This document shows, piece after piece, positions 22,563 through 36,728 of a stretch of 64,000 nt of DNA (its first letter is position 1; each line of letters starts with the position of its first letter). The translations under genes were made by a program, and so were the position numbers. The notes under the pieces were generated by a model that saw only the letters and a program-made list of their open reading frames with translations, was not told the DNA's origin and did no database searches. The stretch spans positions 2,905 through 66,904 of the IMG/VR virus record IMGVR_UViG_3300035429_000172. One strand, given 5' to 3'. This DNA comes from a virus. Its lineage: Duplodnaviria > Caudoviricetes.

Positions 22563-22913
22563 ATGGAGTCAAAAACAAATGATGTAAAAGAATTCTTTGA
22601 TGAGGCCGTTAAGATCAAAGAACAACGAGGTAAAAATTATGATAATGGTGGCAAATCGGCGTTTGAGCGTTCAATGGATATGTTCGACGAAAAAAATGCA
22701 GTAGTAGTATCAATTTGGCCTGTTGTTCAAAAAGCATCGAGATTAGTTTCGTTGGCTAAAGAAGTTCAAGAAATTCAAAACGGTAGTTCTACCTTGAGTT
22801 TATCAGAGGCGATAAAGTCTATGGACGATACAAGCAAAGATCTTGTTAACTATACTGCTATGCAATGGGTAAGAAACGTAAAACCTTATCTTAAAAAGGG
22901 AGAGCAAAAATAA
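22563..22913 (+). CDS. Hypothetical protein, possibly nucleotide-modification-associated domain
   Basis: IKEQRGKNYDNG and DLVNY motifs; family assignment from memory. Confidence 0.4.
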   Translation: MESKTNDVKEFFDEAVKIKEQRGKNYDNGGKSAFERSMDMFDEKNAVVVSIWPVVQKASRLVSLAKEVQEIQNGSSTLSLSEAIKSMDDTSKDLVNYTAMQWVRNVKPYLKKGEQK

Positions 22914-22918
22914 GTGGC

Positions 22919-23347
22919 TTGAATGCGTCACAAACCACTGTTTCTTTTGTTATTCCAGGACAGCCAGTAGGGCAAGGTAGACCGAGATTTACTACTAGAG
23001 GACGATATCCACATGCTGTTGACCCACCAAAATCACGGCAGTATAAAAATCTAGTGAAAAAACTTGCATATGATGCTTATCAGGGAGAACCGTTAGATGG
23101 GCCTATAAAAATTAAATTGATTCATTATTTTGAAATTCCCAAGAGTTATTCCAAAAAAAGAAAAAAGGCTTGTTTAGAAGGTACAGAAAGACCAACTAAA
23201 AAGCCAGATATCGATAATGTTTATAAAGGAATTGCTGATGCAATGAGTGGAATAATTTATCAGGACGATAAGCAGATAGTAGAAGATATGCAGGAGCAAT
23301 GGTATAGTTTAACGCCTTGTGTTAAAGTTGAGGTAATGCAAATATAA
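22919..23347 (+). CDS. rusA: RusA-family Holliday junction resolvase
   Basis: VGQGRPRF, KKPDIDNVYKGIADAMSGIIYQDDKQIV. Confidence 0.9.
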   Translation: MNASQTTVSFVIPGQPVGQGRPRFTTRGRYPHAVDPPKSRQYKNLVKKLAYDAYQGEPLDGPIKIKLIHYFEIPKSYSKKRKKACLEGTERPTKKPDIDNVYKGIADAMSGIIYQDDKQIVEDMQEQWYSLTPCVKVEVMQI

Positions 23348-23350
23348 TTG

Positions 23351-23391
23351 AAAGAGTTCTATTCATTTTATTGAGTAGAACTCTTTTTTTT
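23351..23391 (+). terminator. Intrinsic terminator ending the early operon
   Basis: AAAGAGTTCTA/TAGAACTCTTT stem followed by a T run. Confidence 0.85.
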
Positions 23392-23401
23392 AAAAATTCG
23401 C

Positions 23402-23430
23402 TTGTGACCATTTTAAAAACTACATATCAT
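23402..23430 (+). promoter_or_regulatory. Putative sigma-A promoter for the ncRNA cluster
   Basis: TTGTGA-N17-TATCAT. Confidence 0.5.
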
Positions 23431-23478
23431 AGAATATGTCCTAATAAAGAAGACATTTGACACAGTCCACATATTCTG

Positions 23479-31187: not shown

Positions 31188-31595
31188 TCCAGAAAATAAG
31201 AGAATTTATTCCCAGAAAAAGCATGCTTTTTATATATACAGAAGAAAAATTTTTTCTGAAAAAAGCATGCTTTTTATATATGCTTATTTGGCTTTCATCC
31301 CGGAAAACTTTTTCTTTGAAAAGATCTTTCTTCTATATATCTAAATATCTAATTTGAACACATGTTCGCTTACTATTATATAGTCGTAATGTAATTAAAA
31401 GCTTCTATATAATGTAGAGAAAACATGCTAACAGCTCTAAAAAGGGCTATTTTTGCCCGCTAGCACCTTTTTTCTCCCTACACTTCTAATTGTATTCATG
31501 TTTTTAAAAATCTTAGTTGCTAGCTATCTACCTTATATAGATAAATCCTTATTTAGTAAGTGTTCAGACTATGCGAAAAAAGTTTATAAAAGGGG

Positions 31596-31624
31596 TTGAC
31601 TAATTTAAATCATAATATTATGAT
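31596..31624 (+). promoter_or_regulatory. Promoter/operator, cassette A
   Basis: TTGACT-N17-TATGAT overlapping perfect palindrome ATCATAATATTATGAT (31609-31624). Confidence 0.8.
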
Positions 31625-31716
31625 CATTGTGTAAGGTTGATTAAGGCAAAATAAAAAGCCTTAAAGGTAGAGCCCTCAAGACCTTACTAAATTTAATAGC
31701 AAAGGGCGCAAAAGCC

Positions 31717-31812
31717 ATGAGTATTACAGTAACTTTTGCGGATCCTAAAATAATTTTATTTATTGTAGCTGTTTGTGTTTGGCTATATGAACAGCACAAA
31801 AATAAAAAATAA
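31717..31812 (+). CDS. 31-aa hydrophobic peptide, type I toxin-like (cassette A)
   Basis: MSITVTFADPKIILFIVAVCVWLYEQHKNKK; not in the ORF track. Confidence 0.65.
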   Translation: MSITVTFADPKIILFIVAVCVWLYEQHKNKK

Positions 31813-31881
31813 GATTCGTAAAGGGTAAGCTTAAAGGCTTGCCCTTTGCTATAAGTATACCATATAAAAGGAGTTTGAAAA

Positions 31882-32124
31882 ATGGTATTAAGTGAAGAAG
31901 AAAAGAAAAGAAGACATAGAGAAGCACAAAGGCGCTATAATGCTAGACGCATAAAAAAGAGACTAGCAGGAGACAAAAAGGAATTAGAACAGTATGAAAG
32001 AGACAAAGCCAATTCAATGTATGGGAATGTTAAGAGTTATATAAGCGAACAGGCAACAAAAGCCCAATTATTAGAATTTAGGGACTTAATAGCAGAACGC
32101 CAGAAAAAACTTTCAAAAAAATAA
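31882..32124 (+). CDS. Small basic helical protein (cassette A)
   Basis: REAQRRYNARR..YISEQATKAQLLEFRDLIAER; paralog of 33933 and 34274. Confidence 0.75.
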   Translation: MVLSEEEKKRRHREAQRRYNARRIKKRLAGDKKELEQYERDKANSMYGNVKSYISEQATKAQLLEFRDLIAERQKKLSKK

Positions 32125-32134
32125 ATAAAAAGTA

Positions 32135-32163
32135 TTGACTATCATAATATTATGATATATTAT
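32135..32163 (+). promoter_or_regulatory. Promoter/operator, unit A2
   Basis: TTGACT-N17-TATTAT with palindrome TATCATAATATTATGATA (32140-32157). Confidence 0.8.
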
Positions 32164-32346
32164 AAATATGTAAGTTGAAGAGGGAACAAAAAAAGCCCAG
32201 TGCGGGAACACTGAGCAAACTCAAAAACTTATAAAGTGTCTAAACAATATAAATAGTAGGCTAGAAGCCTTTTAATTTGAGTAACTATATAATACCAAAT
32301 TAGAAGCTTCTAGTCTAGCAAAATTTAGATTAGGAGTGTTTTTATT

Positions 32347-33355
32347 ATGGTTAAAAATGAAGTAAAAGAATTTAATGTTTACGGTAATGTTTACGGTGTA
32401 AGCCTTTGGCGTTCTGGTATGGCTGCGATTTTTGATATGTTAGACGGCTTAGCAGGCAGTAAAGAAAATAGTGAATTACATGAATATAAACAAGCACTAA
32501 ACCAAGAAGGAACATACAGCCTAAAAATTAACGGTAAATTTAACCCGAACAGCGTTTCAAGTTCTGAACTATTTAATAATTTTGCTGATGATTTAAAAGC
32601 TAATATCTTAAATAGTGAGCTTGAACAAGTTGGATTTAGTAAAGAATGGTTAATAAGTCAACATAATAAATTAGTTGAAATAGCTATCAACTTAAACAAG
32701 AACAAAGTAGAAATTGAATATTAAGAGGTGTTGAAAATGAAGACTATAAAAAATGTTGCAGACGTTAAAAGTTTAGATATAATAGCAGCATTTAAACAAG
32801 CAAAAAAGGTTTATTACGATACAGTTGAAGAAGTTTGCGGGAGTATAACCGCCTATAACACCCCTAAACAATCTAACAAAATTGATGAAGCACTAAAAAA
32901 ATACGATAAAAAATTTTATATTAACAATCGTCAATTTTTAGAAATTTCCATCATTGATGCAAGTTTTGAAAAATATGGCGTCGGGGCGCTATTTATAGGC
33001 TTTAACGATGACACGGGCGAGAACTTCAACCACTATCCCTCGGCAAGCTTTGAGGTGTGTTATTCACTTAGTGAAGTTGCTTACTATTGGAATGATTTTT
33101 TAAAGCGATTGAATGAAAATACTTTTATTTACAGATAGAAGAAACAAAGTGAAAAAAATAAAATTTGTGTTTATTGAGTATGTGCCGGCTAGCAAGAAAC
33201 TAGAAGAATTTGAAGAAGTCGCAAGCTTTGCGCCTGAATTGATGGAAGTTGCACAGCGGACTTTTAAAAGTTATAAAAAGAGCTTAGAAAATAGCGAAAA
33301 TGATTGCTATTTAGGCATTCAATACCAAGACGGCGACAGCGAAAAAATTATGTAA
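32347..33355 (+). CDS. Three hypothetical proteins downstream of the A2 promoter (32347-32724, ORFs ending 33138 and 33355)
   Basis: ORFs with RBS; followed by a broken ORF remnant and a terminator at 33604-33635. Confidence 0.6.
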
Positions 33356-33644
33356 AGGAGTATTTAAAATGTTAGAAAGTGAAGTATTTACAACAGTAGC
33401 AGGATATAAAAAGCATTAGCTAATTTAGTTATTAAAGCAGCAAAGCAAAATAAAAAATAAGTTTGCTTGGTATATATCTATGTGATGCAAATAGCGGTGG
33501 ACTAGATGAAAACGAAATACAATTTTTTGAACGAATAGTGAAAGACGGCAAAAAGGACGGGCGTAAGTGGGTTCTAAGATATCCTAAGACAATATAAAAC
33601 AATAAAAAAGACGGCTAAAGTAGCCGTTTTTATTTATATTTTAC

Positions 33645-33673
33645 TTGATTTTATATCTTATAAGGTATATTAT
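33645..33673 (+). promoter_or_regulatory. Promoter/operator, cassette B
   Basis: TTGATT-N17-TATTAT with near-palindrome TATATCTTATAAGGTATA (33652-33669). Confidence 0.75.
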
Positions 33674-33778
33674 AATACTTGTGATGGGGATGGAATGGTA
33701 AACCTGAAACCTCACACGTGGCAAAGTAAAAGCCGTGGGCTTTTGCAGAACCCACGGCAACAATAGAAAGGGTAAGCA

Positions 33779-33871
33779 ATGACCATCACAATAACTATTG
33801 CTAGTCCCTACTTCTTAATTATTATTATAGCGGGAATAATTGCCGTTGTAAACAATAAGAAAAAGAAGTAA
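33779..33871 (+). CDS. 30-aa hydrophobic peptide, type I toxin-like (cassette B)
   Basis: MTITITIASPYFLIIIIAGIIAVVNNKKKK; homologous to the cassette A peptide. Confidence 0.7.
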   Translation: MTITITIASPYFLIIIIAGIIAVVNNKKKK

Positions 33872-33932
33872 AGAGCTATAACGTGGGTAAGTCGGAGGGC
33901 TTGCCCTTTCTATTTATATAAGGGGCTTTATT

Positions 33933-34133
33933 ATGAAAACAAGCAACGCACAACGAAAAGCAAATAAAAAATATAAGGATAACCACCCAGACAAACAACG
34001 CACTTACGTCGCAAGGTCAACCGCTAAGCGTTTTGTAAAAGAACTTGCAACACTTAAAGACTTAGACGAACTAACGGCGCTTATACAAGCTAAACGCCAA
34101 GAACTAAGAGAAGGCGAGAACGATGAAAAATAA
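33933..34133 (+). CDS. Small basic helical protein B1
   Basis: SNAQRKANKKY..RSTAKRFVKELATLKDLDELTALI. Confidence 0.8.
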   Translation: MKTSNAQRKANKKYKDNHPDKQRTYVARSTAKRFVKELATLKDLDELTALIQAKRQELREGENDEK

Positions 34134-34305
34134 GGCAATTCAAAATGGTATCACTTTAATTGTTTTATTAAGCTTTTTAATTGGCGCAATAAAAGAAAGA
34201 AGTATACTATTAGCAACAATCTTTTTTATAGGTATAATCATTTTTATAATTGTTAAGTTAAGAGGTGGGAACGATGGCAACGGAAGCACAAAAAAAGGCT
34301 CGTGA
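34123..34305 (+). CDS. Small two-TM membrane protein
   Basis: Two hydrophobic segments; overlaps neighbouring genes. Confidence 0.6.
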   Translation: MKNKAIQNGITLIVLLSFLIGAIKERSILLATIFFIGIIIFIIVKLRGGNDGNGSTKKGS

Positions 34306-34459
34306 TAAGTGGAAGGCTAAGAATAAAGAAAAGAACGCGCTTATTAATAAGCGATCGACGGCAAGAAGTTTTATAAGAAGGTTCGCTAGCTTGGAAGACT
34401 TGGAAGAGTTAAAAGGGCTAATAAAGGAACGCGAAACCGAGCTAAAAAGCGAAAAATAA
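34274..34459 (+). CDS. Small basic helical protein B2
   Basis: TEAQKKARDKW..RSTARSFIRRFASLEDLEELKGLIKER. Confidence 0.8.
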   Translation: MATEAQKKARDKWKAKNKEKNALINKRSTARSFIRRFASLEDLEELKGLIKERETELKSEK

Positions 34460-34472
34460 TTTATTAATTCTC

Positions 34473-34501
34473 TTGACTCTATACCCTATAGGGTATATTA
34501 T
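34473..34501 (+). promoter_or_regulatory. Promoter/operator, cassette C
   Basis: TTGACT-N17-TATTAT with perfect palindrome TATACCCTATAGGGTATA (34480-34497). Confidence 0.8.
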
Positions 34502-34578
34502 AATATATGTAAGGAGGTTGAAAGCCTTAACCGAGTAAACTTCCTTACGATTCCCGAATAGTGGGAGGTGGTCGGCAC

Positions 34579-34728
34579 TTGGCTTATAAGTCACGTAAAG
34601 ACTACCAGCGAAAAATAAGGGCACAAAAAAAGGCGAAAAGATGGAACTTAATAGAACATCTTAACACCTTAATAAACCTTATTATAGCGCTGGTTCAGCT
34701 CTGGTTACTTTACCACCAATACCACTAA
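34579..34728 (+). CDS. 49-aa basic/hydrophobic peptide (cassette C)
   Basis: GGGAGG RBS, TTG start, MAYKSRKDYQRKIRAQKKAKRWNLIEHLNTLINLIIALVQLWLLYHQYH. Confidence 0.55.
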   Translation: MAYKSRKDYQRKIRAQKKAKRWNLIEHLNTLINLIIALVQLWLLYHQYH

Positions 34729-34804
34729 GGGAAGTAACCACTAAGGGGCGAGCGTTAAGGGCTTGCCCTTTTGTGGTTTTATTATACCATGAAGGAGCTT
34801 TATT

Positions 34805-34966
34805 ATGAAAAAAAGAAAAAACATTATTAAGTTAATAGATTTTATTGTGCTTCTGATTGCTCTTTTTACTTTAGTTTTTTATGAATTTGATACATATAAA
34901 TTAATTTCTGGGCTGGTTGTTTTATCGTGTAGCATTTCATTATATATAGAAACATTTAAAAATTAA
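34805..34966 (+). CDS. 53-aa two-TM membrane protein (cassette C)
   Basis: AAGGAG RBS; MKKRKNIIKLIDFIVLLIALFTLVFYEFDTYKLISGLVVLSCSISLYIETFKN. Confidence 0.65.
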   Translation: MKKRKNIIKLIDFIVLLIALFTLVFYEFDTYKLISGLVVLSCSISLYIETFKN

Positions 34967-34980
34967 GATAAACGAATTTA

Positions 34981-35012
34981 AAGGCTATCTATTTATTTAG
35001 GTAGCCTTTTTT
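34981..35012 (+). terminator. Intrinsic terminator closing the cassette array
   Basis: AAGGCTATCTA/TAGGTAGCCTT plus T run. Confidence 0.8.
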
Positions 35013-35672
35013 ATTTGCTCATTTAATAACATATGTTTGCTTAGCTTCAATGGCTATTAAAGCTTATATCATTAAGCAACTATAAGACTAATAAGAGAGA
35101 TACACACGACAACACCAGCACCCAAAGCATAGACATCGAACAAGCTAAACTACTAAGACACTTAAGGCTTAACTATATAAGGAAGAAGGTAACGGCACGA
35201 GCTTATAGACCACAACCCAAACAACACCAGTAAGACTATGCACGCGAACAATTACAACTACAACACTATTACTATTTCTTATCATATTACTAAGAACACA
35301 AGTAAGAGAATAGAAAAAACATACCAGCAAGACGCAGGAGCACACAAGAGCACAACAAGGCTATATAAGGCAAGTAATACCACAATACTACAAACTCATA
35401 TATTAAGTGTGTCACGTGCGGAAAAAATGCGGAACCATTGGACGGCTTAAGGTGCTATATTGATAGCATACAGAACTAGAGTTCAGGACGCGCACGCGTG
35501 CGGCTGCTGGCTGTACCTTGTACCATCGCATACGATAGCACACCACACCAGCGACGCGACCACGTGAGACACTACACACGATAGACAAGCAAGACAACGA
35601 CAAGAATAACAATTATAAATTACTTTTGTTTTTTCTTTTTTTGTTTTATAAAAAAAGATTTTTCTTCTTTCT

Positions 35673-36065
35673 TTGTCGTTTGTTGCTACACTATCAGCAA
35701 TCCAACACAGCAAGAGAAGAGCAGACACAGTGAACCGATACAGATACGAGACAAACAACAATACTTTCTACCATTCGCAAGCGTGGAGAACGCTACGACG
35801 TCAAGCGCTCGAACGTGATAAACATCTTTGCCAAATCTGTTTGCAACACAACGAACTCACGTTTGCCGATACAGTACACCACATTAAGCCTATAAGGGAA
35901 AACGACTCGGAAAAATTGTGCCTTGAAAACCTTGTGACTGTTTGCCGTAAGTGCCACAACGAGCTACACCGTGAAAAGCCTATGACTTTAAAAAAGAAAA
36001 AAAGACGTTTAAACAACTATACCAATTTAGTGAAACGGTTCACAAACAACAAAGAAGTATGGTGA
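35673..36065 (+). CDS. HNH endonuclease (packaging-associated); start uncertain
   Basis: CQIC..VHHIKP..NLVTVCRKCHNELH directly upstream of terS. Confidence 0.9.
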   Translation: MSFVATLSAIQHSKRRADTVNRYRYETNNNTFYHSQAWRTLRRQALERDKHLCQICLQHNELTFADTVHHIKPIRENDSEKLCLENLVTVCRKCHNELHREKPMTLKKKKRRLNNYTNLVKRFTNNKEVW

Positions 36066-36269: not shown

Positions 36270-36728
36270 ATGCCTAGAAATGCTCAAAGTGCTTATATAC
36301 AGTTGCTTAATGGCAATCCAAATAAGCGTACAAAAAAGCAATTAAAAAAGAGAATTAAGCAAGAAGAAAAGCTTCAAGTTTCAGCCGAAGATATGGATAT
36401 ACCAATTTCAGCTGATGCAGGGGTGAAAAAGGAGTATAACCGAATTTTAAAAGTGTTTAAGGATTCGGACCTTTTTAACGAAGCTGATGTCACAACTTTG
36501 GCTCGATATGCCGATTTATGGGGCGAATACGTTGCAGCTAATCGTCGATTGAAAAAGAACGGTAAGTACCACGATGGAAAGCTTGATCCTGATTTAGGTT
36601 TTAAATTAAAGTTATCTGCTGAACTAGACAAGTTAGCAAAAGAATTAGGTTTAACTCCCGCTGCGCGTGCATCCCTTGCAATAAGCAAGAAAGATGATGA
36701 GCCTGATAAGTCGGATGACGACTTTTAA
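36270..36728 (+). CDS. Terminase small subunit (P27 family)
   Basis: LLNGNPNKR, LARYADLW, ELGLTPAARA. Confidence 0.9.
   Translation: MPRNAQSAYIQLLNGNPNKRTKKQLKKRIKQEEKLQVSAEDMDIPISADAGVKKEYNRILKVFKDSDLFNEADVTTLARYADLWGEYVAANRRLKKNGKYHDGKLDPDLGFKLKLSAELDKLAKELGLTPAARASLAISKKDDEPDKSDDDF

What the first reader, a model, noticed from the sequence alone, without database searches (positions are those of the whole stretch)
31696..33914. Mutually exclusive RNA fold that hides the peptide RBS
Seen: cassette A ATAGCAAAGGGC (31696-31707) is the exact complement of GCCCTTTGCTAT (31841-31852). Cassette B AATAGAAAGGGTAAGC (33762-33777) pairs with GCTTGCCCTTTCTATT (33899-33914) with one G-U. The sequences differ between cassettes yet pairing is kept. 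The 3' strand is also the arm of the local hairpin. Inference: a switch between RBS-locked and RBS-free states, like fold-back inhibition in type I toxin mRNAs.
Basis: partly seen in the sequence, partly recalled or inferred. Interest (0 to 1): 0.78.

Follow-up and report, generated by a model that had tools for sequence, protein, structure and literature searches.

The report
Fold-back lock on prophage membrane-peptide genes
Two tiny membrane-peptide genes in a Lactobacillus-type prophage are predicted to fold their messenger RNA back on itself so that the ribosome landing site is buried, and each faces an antisense RNA gene. This is the wiring known from RNA-controlled "type I" toxin genes, here in a new sequence family, so it is real but a familiar kind.

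Summary
**Observation confirmed.** Each 3' strand is also the 3' arm of a local hairpin.

**Not chance.**
- Ribosome-site-to-downstream duplex energies are -26.1 and -26.6 kcal/mol. The 108 other ORF starts in the window average -9.3 (sd 2.8).
- In predicted ensembles the long-range helix forms with probability about 1, also when the downstream operon RNA is added.

**What the tools added.**
- A second, early hairpin pairs each ribosome site with codons 6-12 of its own ORF. It shows compensatory changes between lineages.
- An antisense unit faces the start of peptide B. Its promoter is the best sigma-70 match in the whole window. Its terminator is conserved through two compensatory pairs.
- The peptide evolves as a coding sequence: variable sites by codon position are 1/2/12.
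- The 3' hairpin and strand are the most conserved non-coding part: 1 of 32 columns varies.
- Cassette C and a 41-residue cassette in a relative also bury their ribosome sites by pairing near the stop codon.

**Weak points.**
- Covariation for the long-range helix itself rests on one base-pair insertion or deletion between A and B.
- No RNA ends, toxicity or probing data exist.
- The peptides are first cistrons of small operons.

**Verdict.** A type-I-toxin-like translational lock, closest to aapA1/IsoA1 and hok/sok. It is a new member of a known kind. The scan has reported similar fold-back toxin modules in other genomes.

The parts
31596..31624 (+). Promoter of cassette A (10 of 12 to the sigma-70 consensus), with a 16-bp palindrome at 31609-31624
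   Evidence: read
31631..31687 (+). 5'-terminal stem-loop of the A leader. On the minus strand it overlaps a terminator-like hairpin, 31685 to 31655.
31696..31716 (+). 5' strand of the long-range helix in A. It covers the Shine-Dalgarno element (31701-31706) and runs up to the start codon.
31717..31812 (+). Peptide A ORF: 31 residues, hydrophobic with a Lys-rich tail
31733..31746 (+). Codons 6-10 of peptide A. They pair with 31703-31714 (ribosome site and spacer) in nascent transcripts, forming the early hairpin.
31820..31847 (+). Local 3' hairpin of A: 11 bp with one G-U and no U-tract after it
31836..31852 (+). 3' strand of the long-range helix in A, shared with the 3' arm of the local hairpin
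33645..33673 (+). Promoter of cassette B
33732..33758 (-). Intrinsic terminator of the antisense RNA of B, a hairpin followed by a T-run on the minus strand only. It is kept through two compensatory base-pair changes in relatives.
33762..33777 (+). 5' strand of the long-range helix in B, covering the Shine-Dalgarno element
33779..33871 (+). Peptide B ORF: 30 residues, a paralog of peptide A. Variable sites by codon position are 1/2/12.
33796..33815 (+). Codons 6-12 of peptide B. They pair with 33765-33781 (ribosome site and AUG) to form the early hairpin. One pair changes A-U to U-A in three relatives.
33824..33852 (-). Antisense promoter inside the peptide B ORF. It matches 11 of 12 consensus positions, the only such match in the 64-kb window on either strand.
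33885..33906 (+). Local 3' hairpin of B: 9 bp, followed by a U-rich tract, so terminator-like
33899..33914 (+). 3' strand of the long-range helix in B. It comprises the 3' arm of the local hairpin plus the U-rich tract.
34473..34771 (+). Cassette C. Promoter 34473-34501; ORF of about 49 residues at 34576-34728 (TTG start inferred); terminator 34743-34771. The ORF is closed by 34553-34555 with 34729-34731 and by 34561-34564 with 34722-34725.

Best explanation
**What it is.** Cassettes A and B are RNA-controlled small-membrane-peptide genes built like type I toxin-antitoxin modules. Three layers keep the peptide untranslated.

1. **Early hairpin.** While the mRNA is being made, the Shine-Dalgarno element and its spacer pair with codons 6-12 of the same ORF. 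In B the AUG is included.
2. **Long-range helix.** Once the 3' region is transcribed, a segment just after the ORF pairs with the Shine-Dalgarno region over 15-17 bp and closes the whole ORF into a loop. That segment is the 3' arm of a hairpin, plus in B its U-rich tail. This helix and the local 3' hairpin cannot coexist. The helix is the equilibrium state.
3. **Antisense RNA.** An RNA of about 95 nt, strongly predicted for B, starts inside the ORF and ends at a terminator in the leader. It is complementary to the same ribosome-binding region and could catch any opened mRNA.

**How it could be released.** Loss of the last few 3' nucleotides would shift the 3' strand into the local hairpin, as in hok and aapA1 mRNA activation.

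**Shown by computation:** the helices, their energies, their conservation, the antisense signals and the coding constraint.

**Inferred:** translation repression, the trigger, the existence of the antisense RNA, and peptide toxicity.
For: **Sequence.** The complementarity is exact at the stated coordinates.

**Energies and folds.**
- Duplex energies lie about 6 sd beyond the other ORF starts.
- Helix probability is about 1 in transcripts of 230-500 nt. Opening the 5' strand costs 17.8 and 9.1 kcal/mol.
- Fold z-scores are -8.1 and -4.4.
- Truncation series show the early hairpin, and show the flip to the local hairpin when 4-8 nt of the 3' end are removed.

**Conservation and covariation.**
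- The early hairpin has A-U to U-A and G-U to G-C changes among B lineages. A and B each match their own codons 6-8.
- The 3' hairpin and strand vary in 1 of 32 columns, against 54 of 237 overall (P=0.0016).
- Every wobble pair in these helices is G-U on the plus strand, with no A-C.
- In L021 six of seven changes at paired sites keep the pair.
- Where the A peptide is truncated, the 3' strand and hairpin have decayed (L136) or are deleted (L027).

**Antisense unit.** It has the best promoter match in the window, plus a terminator with two compensatory pairs and a T-run on the minus strand only.

**Peptide.** It is under purifying selection: variable sites by codon position are 1/2/12.

**Other cassettes.** Cassette C and the 41-residue cassette of L021 also pair their ribosome sites with the ORF end.

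**Published parallel.** aapA1/IsoA1 has a 30-residue toxin and an inert full-length mRNA that is activated by 3' processing (PMC5416894). For the paralogous aapA3/IsoA3 module, SD-sequestering metastable hairpins were proposed, one of them embedded in the ORF (PMC6733600).
Against: - **Thin covariation for the helix itself.** Among 8 B-type sequences the long-range helix never covaries (14 of 16 pairs are invariant). Support rests on one mirrored C:G insertion or deletion between A and B.
- **Uncompensated change.** One relative (L027) has an uncompensated G-to-T change in the 5' strand.
- **Not a stand-alone toxin gene.** The hairpin of A has no U-tract, and there is no room for a promoter before the next gene. 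The peptides are therefore first cistrons of operons.
- **Unit D.** It has the same promoter, leader and antisense terminator but no peptide. The antisense RNAs may therefore regulate the operons in general.
- **No known family.** Nothing in Pfam, NCBIfam, PHROGs or Rfam matches the peptides or RNAs.
- **Distant modules differ.** phrog_2277 modules in Listeria, Clostridium and Streptococcus prophages show no such fold-back in their minimum-energy folds.
- **Evidence type.** All structure evidence is thermodynamic prediction.
Confidence: 0.55

Rival explanations
1. The 3' hairpins are ordinary terminators, attenuators or stabilisers of operon mRNAs. Their complementarity to the ribosome sites would be a by-product: the purine-rich ribosome-site motif was duplicated as the 5' arm of the hairpin when cassettes recombined. 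On this view there is no selected long-range pairing.
For: - The same 11-nt motif serves as the ribosome-site region of B and as the 5' arm of the hairpin of A.
- The cassettes are modular and shuffled among relatives.
- There is no covariation of the helix within the B type.
- The hairpins of B and C are terminator-like.
Against: - Pairing extends 5-8 nt beyond what the local hairpin uses in both cassettes.
- A mirrored C:G difference keeps the register.
- The energies are extreme outliers.
- A classical antiterminator would have to bind the 5' arm of the terminator, not its 3' arm.
- The 3' strand outside the local stem is invariant, while the spacer before it varies.
Confidence: 0.2
2. The long helix is a processing stalk. 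In A it is extended by a nearly continuous rod through the ORF. A double-strand-specific nuclease such as RNase III would cut there. That would detach or destroy the peptide cistron and set the stability of the downstream phrog_2277 message.
For: - In A the minimum-energy fold pairs 134 of 171 nt into one rod.
- The peptide is co-transcribed with downstream genes, as inferred from the lack of a terminator and promoter.
- RNase III processing of phage early operon RNAs is established knowledge (T7, lambda).
Against: - B has only a 16-bp helix closing a loosely structured loop.
- This does not explain why the helix sits exactly on the ribosome site in A, B, C and the L021 cassette.
- It is compatible with the main explanation rather than exclusive of it.
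Confidence: 0.12
3. The two strands are DNA-level inverted repeats, such as recombination or mobility sites flanking a peptide mini-cassette, and not RNA elements.
For: - Inverted repeats of 12-16 bp flank a unit of about 120 bp that is present, truncated or absent in relatives.
Against: - All imperfect pairs are G-U on the plus strand, which would be A-C mismatches in DNA or on the minus strand.
- The repeats overlap the ribosome site and a hairpin arm.
- No target duplications or transposase genes were seen.
Confidence: 0.03

Closest known systems
aapA1/IsoA1 and aapA3/IsoA3 type I toxin-antitoxin modules of Helicobacter pylori (PMC5416894, PMC6733600)
   Same: - A membrane peptide of about 30 residues.
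- An antisense RNA opposite the 5' part of the mRNA.
- A full-length mRNA made inert by pairing of its 3' end with the ribosome-site region.
- Earlier Shine-Dalgarno-sequestering hairpins, one of them embedded in the ORF.
- Release predicted on loss of the 3' end.
   Different: - No sequence or Rfam relationship.
- A Gram-positive prophage context.
- Here the 3' strand is also the arm of a terminator-like hairpin.
- The peptide is followed in the same operon by a phrog_2277 protein.
- The promoter carries an operator-like palindrome.
- Toxicity and RNA processing are untested.
hok/sok (parB of plasmid R1): fold-back inhibition (fbi/tac) of hok mRNA
   Same: - A 5'-3' long-range helix locks translation.
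- Metastable hairpins act during transcription.
- The antisense RNA targets the 5' region.
- 3' trimming activates the mRNA (established knowledge; see also PMC9841398).
   Different: - No mok-like overlapping leader frame.
- Here the helix covers the peptide's own ribosome site directly.
- An unrelated peptide family.
bsrG/SR4, txpA/RatA and related prophage type I modules of Bacillus subtilis (PMC6562991)
   Same: - Firmicute prophage location.
- A small hydrophobic peptide.
- A structured toxin mRNA.
- Cassettes A and C also have candidate antisense promoters just downstream of the 3' hairpin.
   Different: - Those antisense RNAs overlap the 3' end of the toxin mRNA. The best-supported one here (B) overlaps the 5' end and the ribosome site.
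- No match to their Rfam or Pfam models.
Fst/RNA I-RNA II (par of pAD1) and the Lactobacillus Lpt relatives
   Same: - A peptide of about 30 residues with an Ala-x-Pro motif early in the hydrophobic segment and a charged tail.
- 5' structures of RNA I limit translation (my own knowledge, not tested here).
   Different: - No hit to the Fst family in Pfam or NCBIfam at E up to 1-5.
- par RNAs are convergent, with direct repeats and a shared terminator. That arrangement is not seen here.

Membership tests
Type I toxin-antitoxin systems (general definition) | A small (under 60 residues) hydrophobic, membrane-type peptide gene under coding constraint | tested here: met
   The ORFs encode 31 and 30 residues, with a hydrophobic core and a Lys-rich tail. 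Variable sites by codon position are 1/2/12: nine codons change only synonymously and three change the residue.
Type I toxin-antitoxin systems (general definition) | An antisense RNA gene whose transcript base-pairs with the toxin mRNA | tested here: inconclusive
   - B: an 11-of-12 promoter at 33852 to 33824, plus a terminator at 33758 to 33732 with two compensatory pairs and a minus-strand T-run.
- A: only 9-of-12 promoters and a wobble-rich terminator.
- No RNA ends could be obtained, because the runs are held only as contigs.
Type I toxin-antitoxin systems (general definition) | The peptide is toxic when expressed without its antitoxin | not testable with these tools
   This needs induced expression in a Lactobacillus or surrogate host.
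Fold-back-regulated toxin mRNAs (hok, aapA type) | A long-range 5'-3' helix that sequesters the ribosome-binding region in the full-length mRNA | tested here: met
   Predicted only. Probability is about 1, the cost of opening is 9-18 kcal/mol, and the energies are outliers against the window. There is no probing data.
Fold-back-regulated toxin mRNAs (hok, aapA type) | Transient Shine-Dalgarno-sequestering hairpins during transcription | tested here: met
   Truncated-transcript folds show them. There are compensatory changes among lineages.
Fold-back-regulated toxin mRNAs (hok, aapA type) | Activation by 3' processing of a monocistronic transcript | tested here: inconclusive
   - In silico, removing 4-8 nt at the 3' end of B flips the fold.
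- A has no terminator, and both cassettes are followed directly by another gene.
- The real 3' ends are unknown.
Known sequence families (Rfam RNA families; Pfam, NCBIfam and PHROG toxin families) | A significant match to a curated model | tested here: not met
   Rfam gives nothing near gathering scores. Pfam, NCBIfam and PHROGs give no family for the peptides. No relative was found in 401 Lactobacillaceae genomes searched.

The most novel reading that the evidence does not exclude
The fold-back peptides may be one half of a hybrid module that is widespread in Firmicute prophages. Such a module would be an operator-controlled mini-operon. Its first cistron is a type-I-toxin-like peptide, locked by RNA folding and an antisense RNA. 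A following phrog_2277 basic protein would be the cassette-specific repressor or protein-level partner. These units are stacked in tandem, next to the packaging genes here and by the lysin gene or the attachment site in other prophages. Together they could act as an addiction or anti-phage array that combines RNA and protein control.
Probability: 0.2. Interest if true: 0.7.

Novelty: new member of a known kind. Interest (0 to 1): 0.45.

Why it matters
- **A new example outside the classic hosts.** It would add a Lactobacillaceae-prophage family to the few toxin mRNAs for which a full folding pathway can be proposed: early hairpin, 5'-3' lock and antisense RNA. Most such cases are from Gram-negative bacteria.
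- **A simple physical switch.** The lock's 3' strand is shared with a terminator-like hairpin.
- **Function of the tandem cassettes.** The cassettes lie next to the packaging genes, and some relatives carry dead copies. This offers a route to what such small-peptide genes do in gut lactobacilli, such as prophage maintenance, exclusion or abortive infection.
- **Annotation.** Genes of about 30 codons and their antisense RNAs are missing from phage records.

Tried and rejected
- **DNA searches for the cassette region.** Megablast and blastn against 50,697 phage records found nothing useful.
- **Hairpin pattern in viral contigs.** It returned only unrelated terminators.
- **phrog_2277 paralog profile in viral contigs.** No relatives were found.
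- **Peptide profile in 401 Lactobacillaceae genomes.** Only chance-level hits came back. On inspection none was a relative.
- **Back-translated N-terminal pattern in metagenome contigs.** Of 87 loci, only four held true relatives (L103, L133 and two places in L136). The rest were chance matches.
- **Protein atlas.** No usable hit for the peptide, and only unnamed phage clusters for the basic protein.
- **RNA-library runs.** Four metatranscriptome runs were laid on 31300-35200. All are kept only as contigs, so they show no strand, start, end or level. Contigs span 33704-34880 and similar stretches but cannot show a single transcript or an antisense RNA. I draw no conclusion from covered or uncovered parts.
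- **Distant phrog_2277 modules.** Folds from Listeria B025, a C. tetani phage and S. equinus Javan210 show no ribosome-site-to-3' fold-back. The lock is therefore not a universal feature of that wider module.
- **Classical attenuation.** Considered and rejected, because the ribosome-site strand resembles the terminator's 5' arm rather than complementing it. It cannot pre-empt terminator formation during transcription.
Full report
**Context**

The window is most of a 66.9-kb provirus record.
- Its large terminase is 81% identical to that of Limosilactobacillus fermentum phages JNU_P1 and JNU_P5.
- Its small terminase is 74% identical to a Lactobacillus hominis prophage.
- Runs holding about half of the stretch are labelled mouse gut metagenomes.

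The finding lies in a block of short plus-strand transcription units, directly upstream of an HNH endonuclease gene (35673-36065) and the small terminase gene (36270-36728). Four consensus-like promoters stand there, at 31596, 32135, 33645 and 34473. I call their units A, D, B and C.
- A and B each encode a paralogous peptide of about 30 residues, with a hydrophobic core and a Lys-rich tail.
- Each peptide gene is followed by a hairpin and then, without room for a promoter, by a small basic protein of PHROG family 2277, whose function is unknown.
- C encodes an unrelated peptide of about 49 residues followed by a terminator.
- D has no peptide.

**The observation**

- In A the 12-bp helix continues, after a 4-nt bulge, with four more pairs that end at the base before the start codon.
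- In B the 16 pairs end two bases before the start codon.
- Both 3' strands are also the 3' arms of local hairpins.

This is not chance.
- The best duplex between the 22 nt preceding the start codon and the region 60-220 nt downstream is -26.1 kcal/mol for A and -26.6 for B.
- The 108 other ORF starts in the window average -9.3 (sd 2.8, best -17.9). Only 0.4% of 3000 random positions reach -20.

**Folding**

- Minimum-energy folds of the presumed transcripts contain the long-range helix in both cassettes, with z-scores of -8.1 and -4.4 against dinucleotide shuffles.
- In the Boltzmann ensemble each core base of the 5' strand pairs with the 3' strand with probability 0.95-1.0.
- Forbidding the 5' strand from pairing costs 17.8 (A) and 9.1 (B) kcal/mol. 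The best remaining structure then contains the local 3' hairpin. The two folds are therefore truly exclusive, and the locked one is favoured.
- The helix persists when 230-270 nt of downstream operon RNA are added.

**A second lock**

I folded successively longer 5' fragments.
- As soon as about 40 nt of the ORF exist, the Shine-Dalgarno element and the spacer pair with codons 6-12 of the same ORF. In B the AUG is included. The pairs are 31703-31714 with 31733-31746 in A, and 33765-33781 with 33796-33815 in B.
- In B this hairpin remains the predicted partner of the ribosome site until the last 8 nt are added. With a 3' end at 33906 or 33910 the minimum-energy fold has the local 3' hairpin. 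With 33914 it switches to the long-range helix.
- The 'other' state is thus not ribosome-site-free. The mean unpaired probability of the ribosome site stays near 0.3.

The 5' partner is non-coding and the 3' partner is coding, yet each version matches its own codons.
- A and B differ at the pairs made by codon 7 position 1 (A-U versus U-A) and codon 8 position 3 (C-G versus A-U).
- Within the B type, three relatives changed another pair from A-U to U-A, and four relatives changed a G-U to G-C.

**Comparative evidence for the long-range helix**

Homologues of the downstream basic protein led to 17 metagenomic and genomic loci. The terminase search and a pattern search added more.

Among eight distinct B-type cassettes:
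- 54 of 237 columns vary.
- Only 1 of the 32 columns of the local hairpin plus 3' strand varies, and that one lies in the hairpin loop (P=0.0016).
- The helix therefore never covaries. This is silent on pairing, but it shows strong constraint on a non-coding 3' segment.

The only two-sided event is between the paralogs. A has one additional C on the 5' strand and one additional G at the mirrored place on the 3' strand.

Three further hints:
- Every non-Watson-Crick pair in the long-range helices, local hairpins and the C terminator is G-U when read on the plus strand. None is A-C.
- In the 91%-identical A cassette of L021, six of seven substitutions at paired positions keep a pair, all through wobble.
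- In the two relatives where peptide A is truncated to 14-15 residues, the 3' strand and hairpin are deleted (L027) or degraded by changes on both arms (L136).

Against:
- L027 carries an uncompensated G-to-T change in the 5' strand of an intact B cassette.
- The outermost pair is not conserved.

**The peptide is real**

- In the B type the variable ORF sites fall 1, 2 and 12 on codon positions 1, 2 and 3.
- Nine codons change only synonymously and three change the residue.
- Three contigs have lost the stop codon and would read through to 50 residues. One contig has a frameshift.

**Antisense transcription**

For B:
- The minus strand carries, inside the ORF, a promoter matching 11 of 12 consensus positions with a 17-nt spacer. 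It is the single best match on either strand of the whole window.
- About 60 nt downstream of the start expected from it lies a 10-bp GC-rich hairpin followed by a T-run. The T-run exists only on the minus strand.
- The stem is kept through two compensatory changes in three relatives. No shuffle reached the observed covariation score.
- The predicted RNA of about 96 nt would be complementary to the ribosome site, the AUG and the first 13 codons. It would present the anti-Shine-Dalgarno stretch as a single-stranded linker.

For the other units:
- A has weaker signals of the same layout.
- A and C have further candidate promoters with an extended -10 element just beyond the 3' hairpin.
- D has a strong minus-strand terminator and an extended -10 promoter but no peptide ORF. 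The antisense RNAs may therefore serve operon control more generally.

**Other cassettes**

- In C, the consensus fold of seven homologues puts the ribosome site in a hairpin with early codons. It closes the ORF by pairing 34553-34555 and 34561-34564 with 34729-34731 and 34722-34725, around the stop codon. The most diverged homologue uses a different but equivalent pairing.
- In L021, a fourth and unrelated 41-residue cassette pairs its ribosome-site and start region with the last codons of its ORF.
- Burying the ribosome site by pairing with the end of the ORF is thus a recurring design in this phage group.
- Distant phrog_2277 modules from Listeria, Clostridium and Streptococcus prophages also have one or two small membrane peptides upstream. 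They do not show the fold-back.

**Interpretation**

The anatomy matches fold-controlled type I toxin mRNAs, above all aapA1/IsoA1.
- That module has a 30-residue peptide, a 5'-overlapping antisense RNA, and a full-length mRNA that is inert until 3' processing.
- The SD-sequestering metastable hairpins, one of them inside the ORF, were described for its paralog aapA3/IsoA3 (PMC5416894, PMC6733600).

I consider a selected translational lock the best explanation (0.55).
- A classical attenuator is unlikely, because the ribosome-site strand resembles the terminator's 5' arm rather than complementing it.
- A by-product of motif duplication (0.2) and a nuclease processing stalk (0.12) remain open.

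The differences from the known systems are:
- the operon context;
- the operator-like palindromes in the promoters;
- the tandem arrangement;
- the shared use of the 3' strand by a terminator-like hairpin.

No curated RNA or protein family matches.

Earlier notes of this scan describe similar fold-back toxin modules in other genomes, and a comparable peptide-plus-repressor cassette pair in a Clostridioides difficile phage. I did not test those.

**Limits**

- All structures are predictions.
- Transcript ends, the antisense RNA, repression of translation and toxicity are inferred.
- The RNA-library runs available are stored only as contigs and could not settle any of these points.

Noticed in passing
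window 31609-31624, 32141-32156, 33653-33668, 34480-34497: Each cassette promoter holds a palindrome between or across its -35 and -10 hexamers. A and D share the same perfect 16-bp palindrome. C has a perfect 18-bp one that differs among relatives. B has an imperfect one. They look like operators, perhaps for the phrog_2277 proteins.
   Followed up: partly
window 32135-32346 (unit D): Unit D has a promoter, a 5' stem-loop leader, a strong minus-strand terminator (32216 to 32195) and a minus-strand extended -10 promoter (32317 to 32289). It has no peptide ORF, only a 177-nt leader before a 125-residue gene. D-like leaders recur two to four times in related loci (L011, L021, L031).
   Followed up: partly
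L067 (Listeria phage B025, record 22859-23463), L066 (C. tetani phage phiCT19406C), L068 (Streptococcus phage Javan210): phrog_2277 homologues sit near the lysin gene or the attachment site of distant Firmicute prophages. Each is preceded by one or two membrane peptides of 33-54 residues behind a palindrome-bearing promoter. In B025 this module reads on the strand opposite to the annotated gp29-gp31.
   Followed up: partly
window 35060-35620: A stretch of about 550 nt between cassette C and the HNH gene is strikingly rich in A and C and poor in T on the plus strand. It has no convincing ORF. It could be the packaging (cos) region or an unstructured RNA.
   Followed up: no
L011:2616-2768, L012, L013; L133:621; L027:2158-2202; L136 (minus strand, A-type): Natural variants of the peptides occur in relatives. 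The stop codon of B is lost, giving a 50-residue read-through across the hairpin. B is frameshifted in one contig. A is truncated to 14-15 residues together with loss or decay of its 3' hairpin.
   Followed up: partly
window 34123-34305 and 34805-34966: Two further small membrane proteins, of 60 and 53 residues, lie in the same operons. The first overlaps both flanking phrog_2277 genes. The second has a weak, sub-threshold resemblance to a SLATT domain (E 0.01).
   Followed up: no
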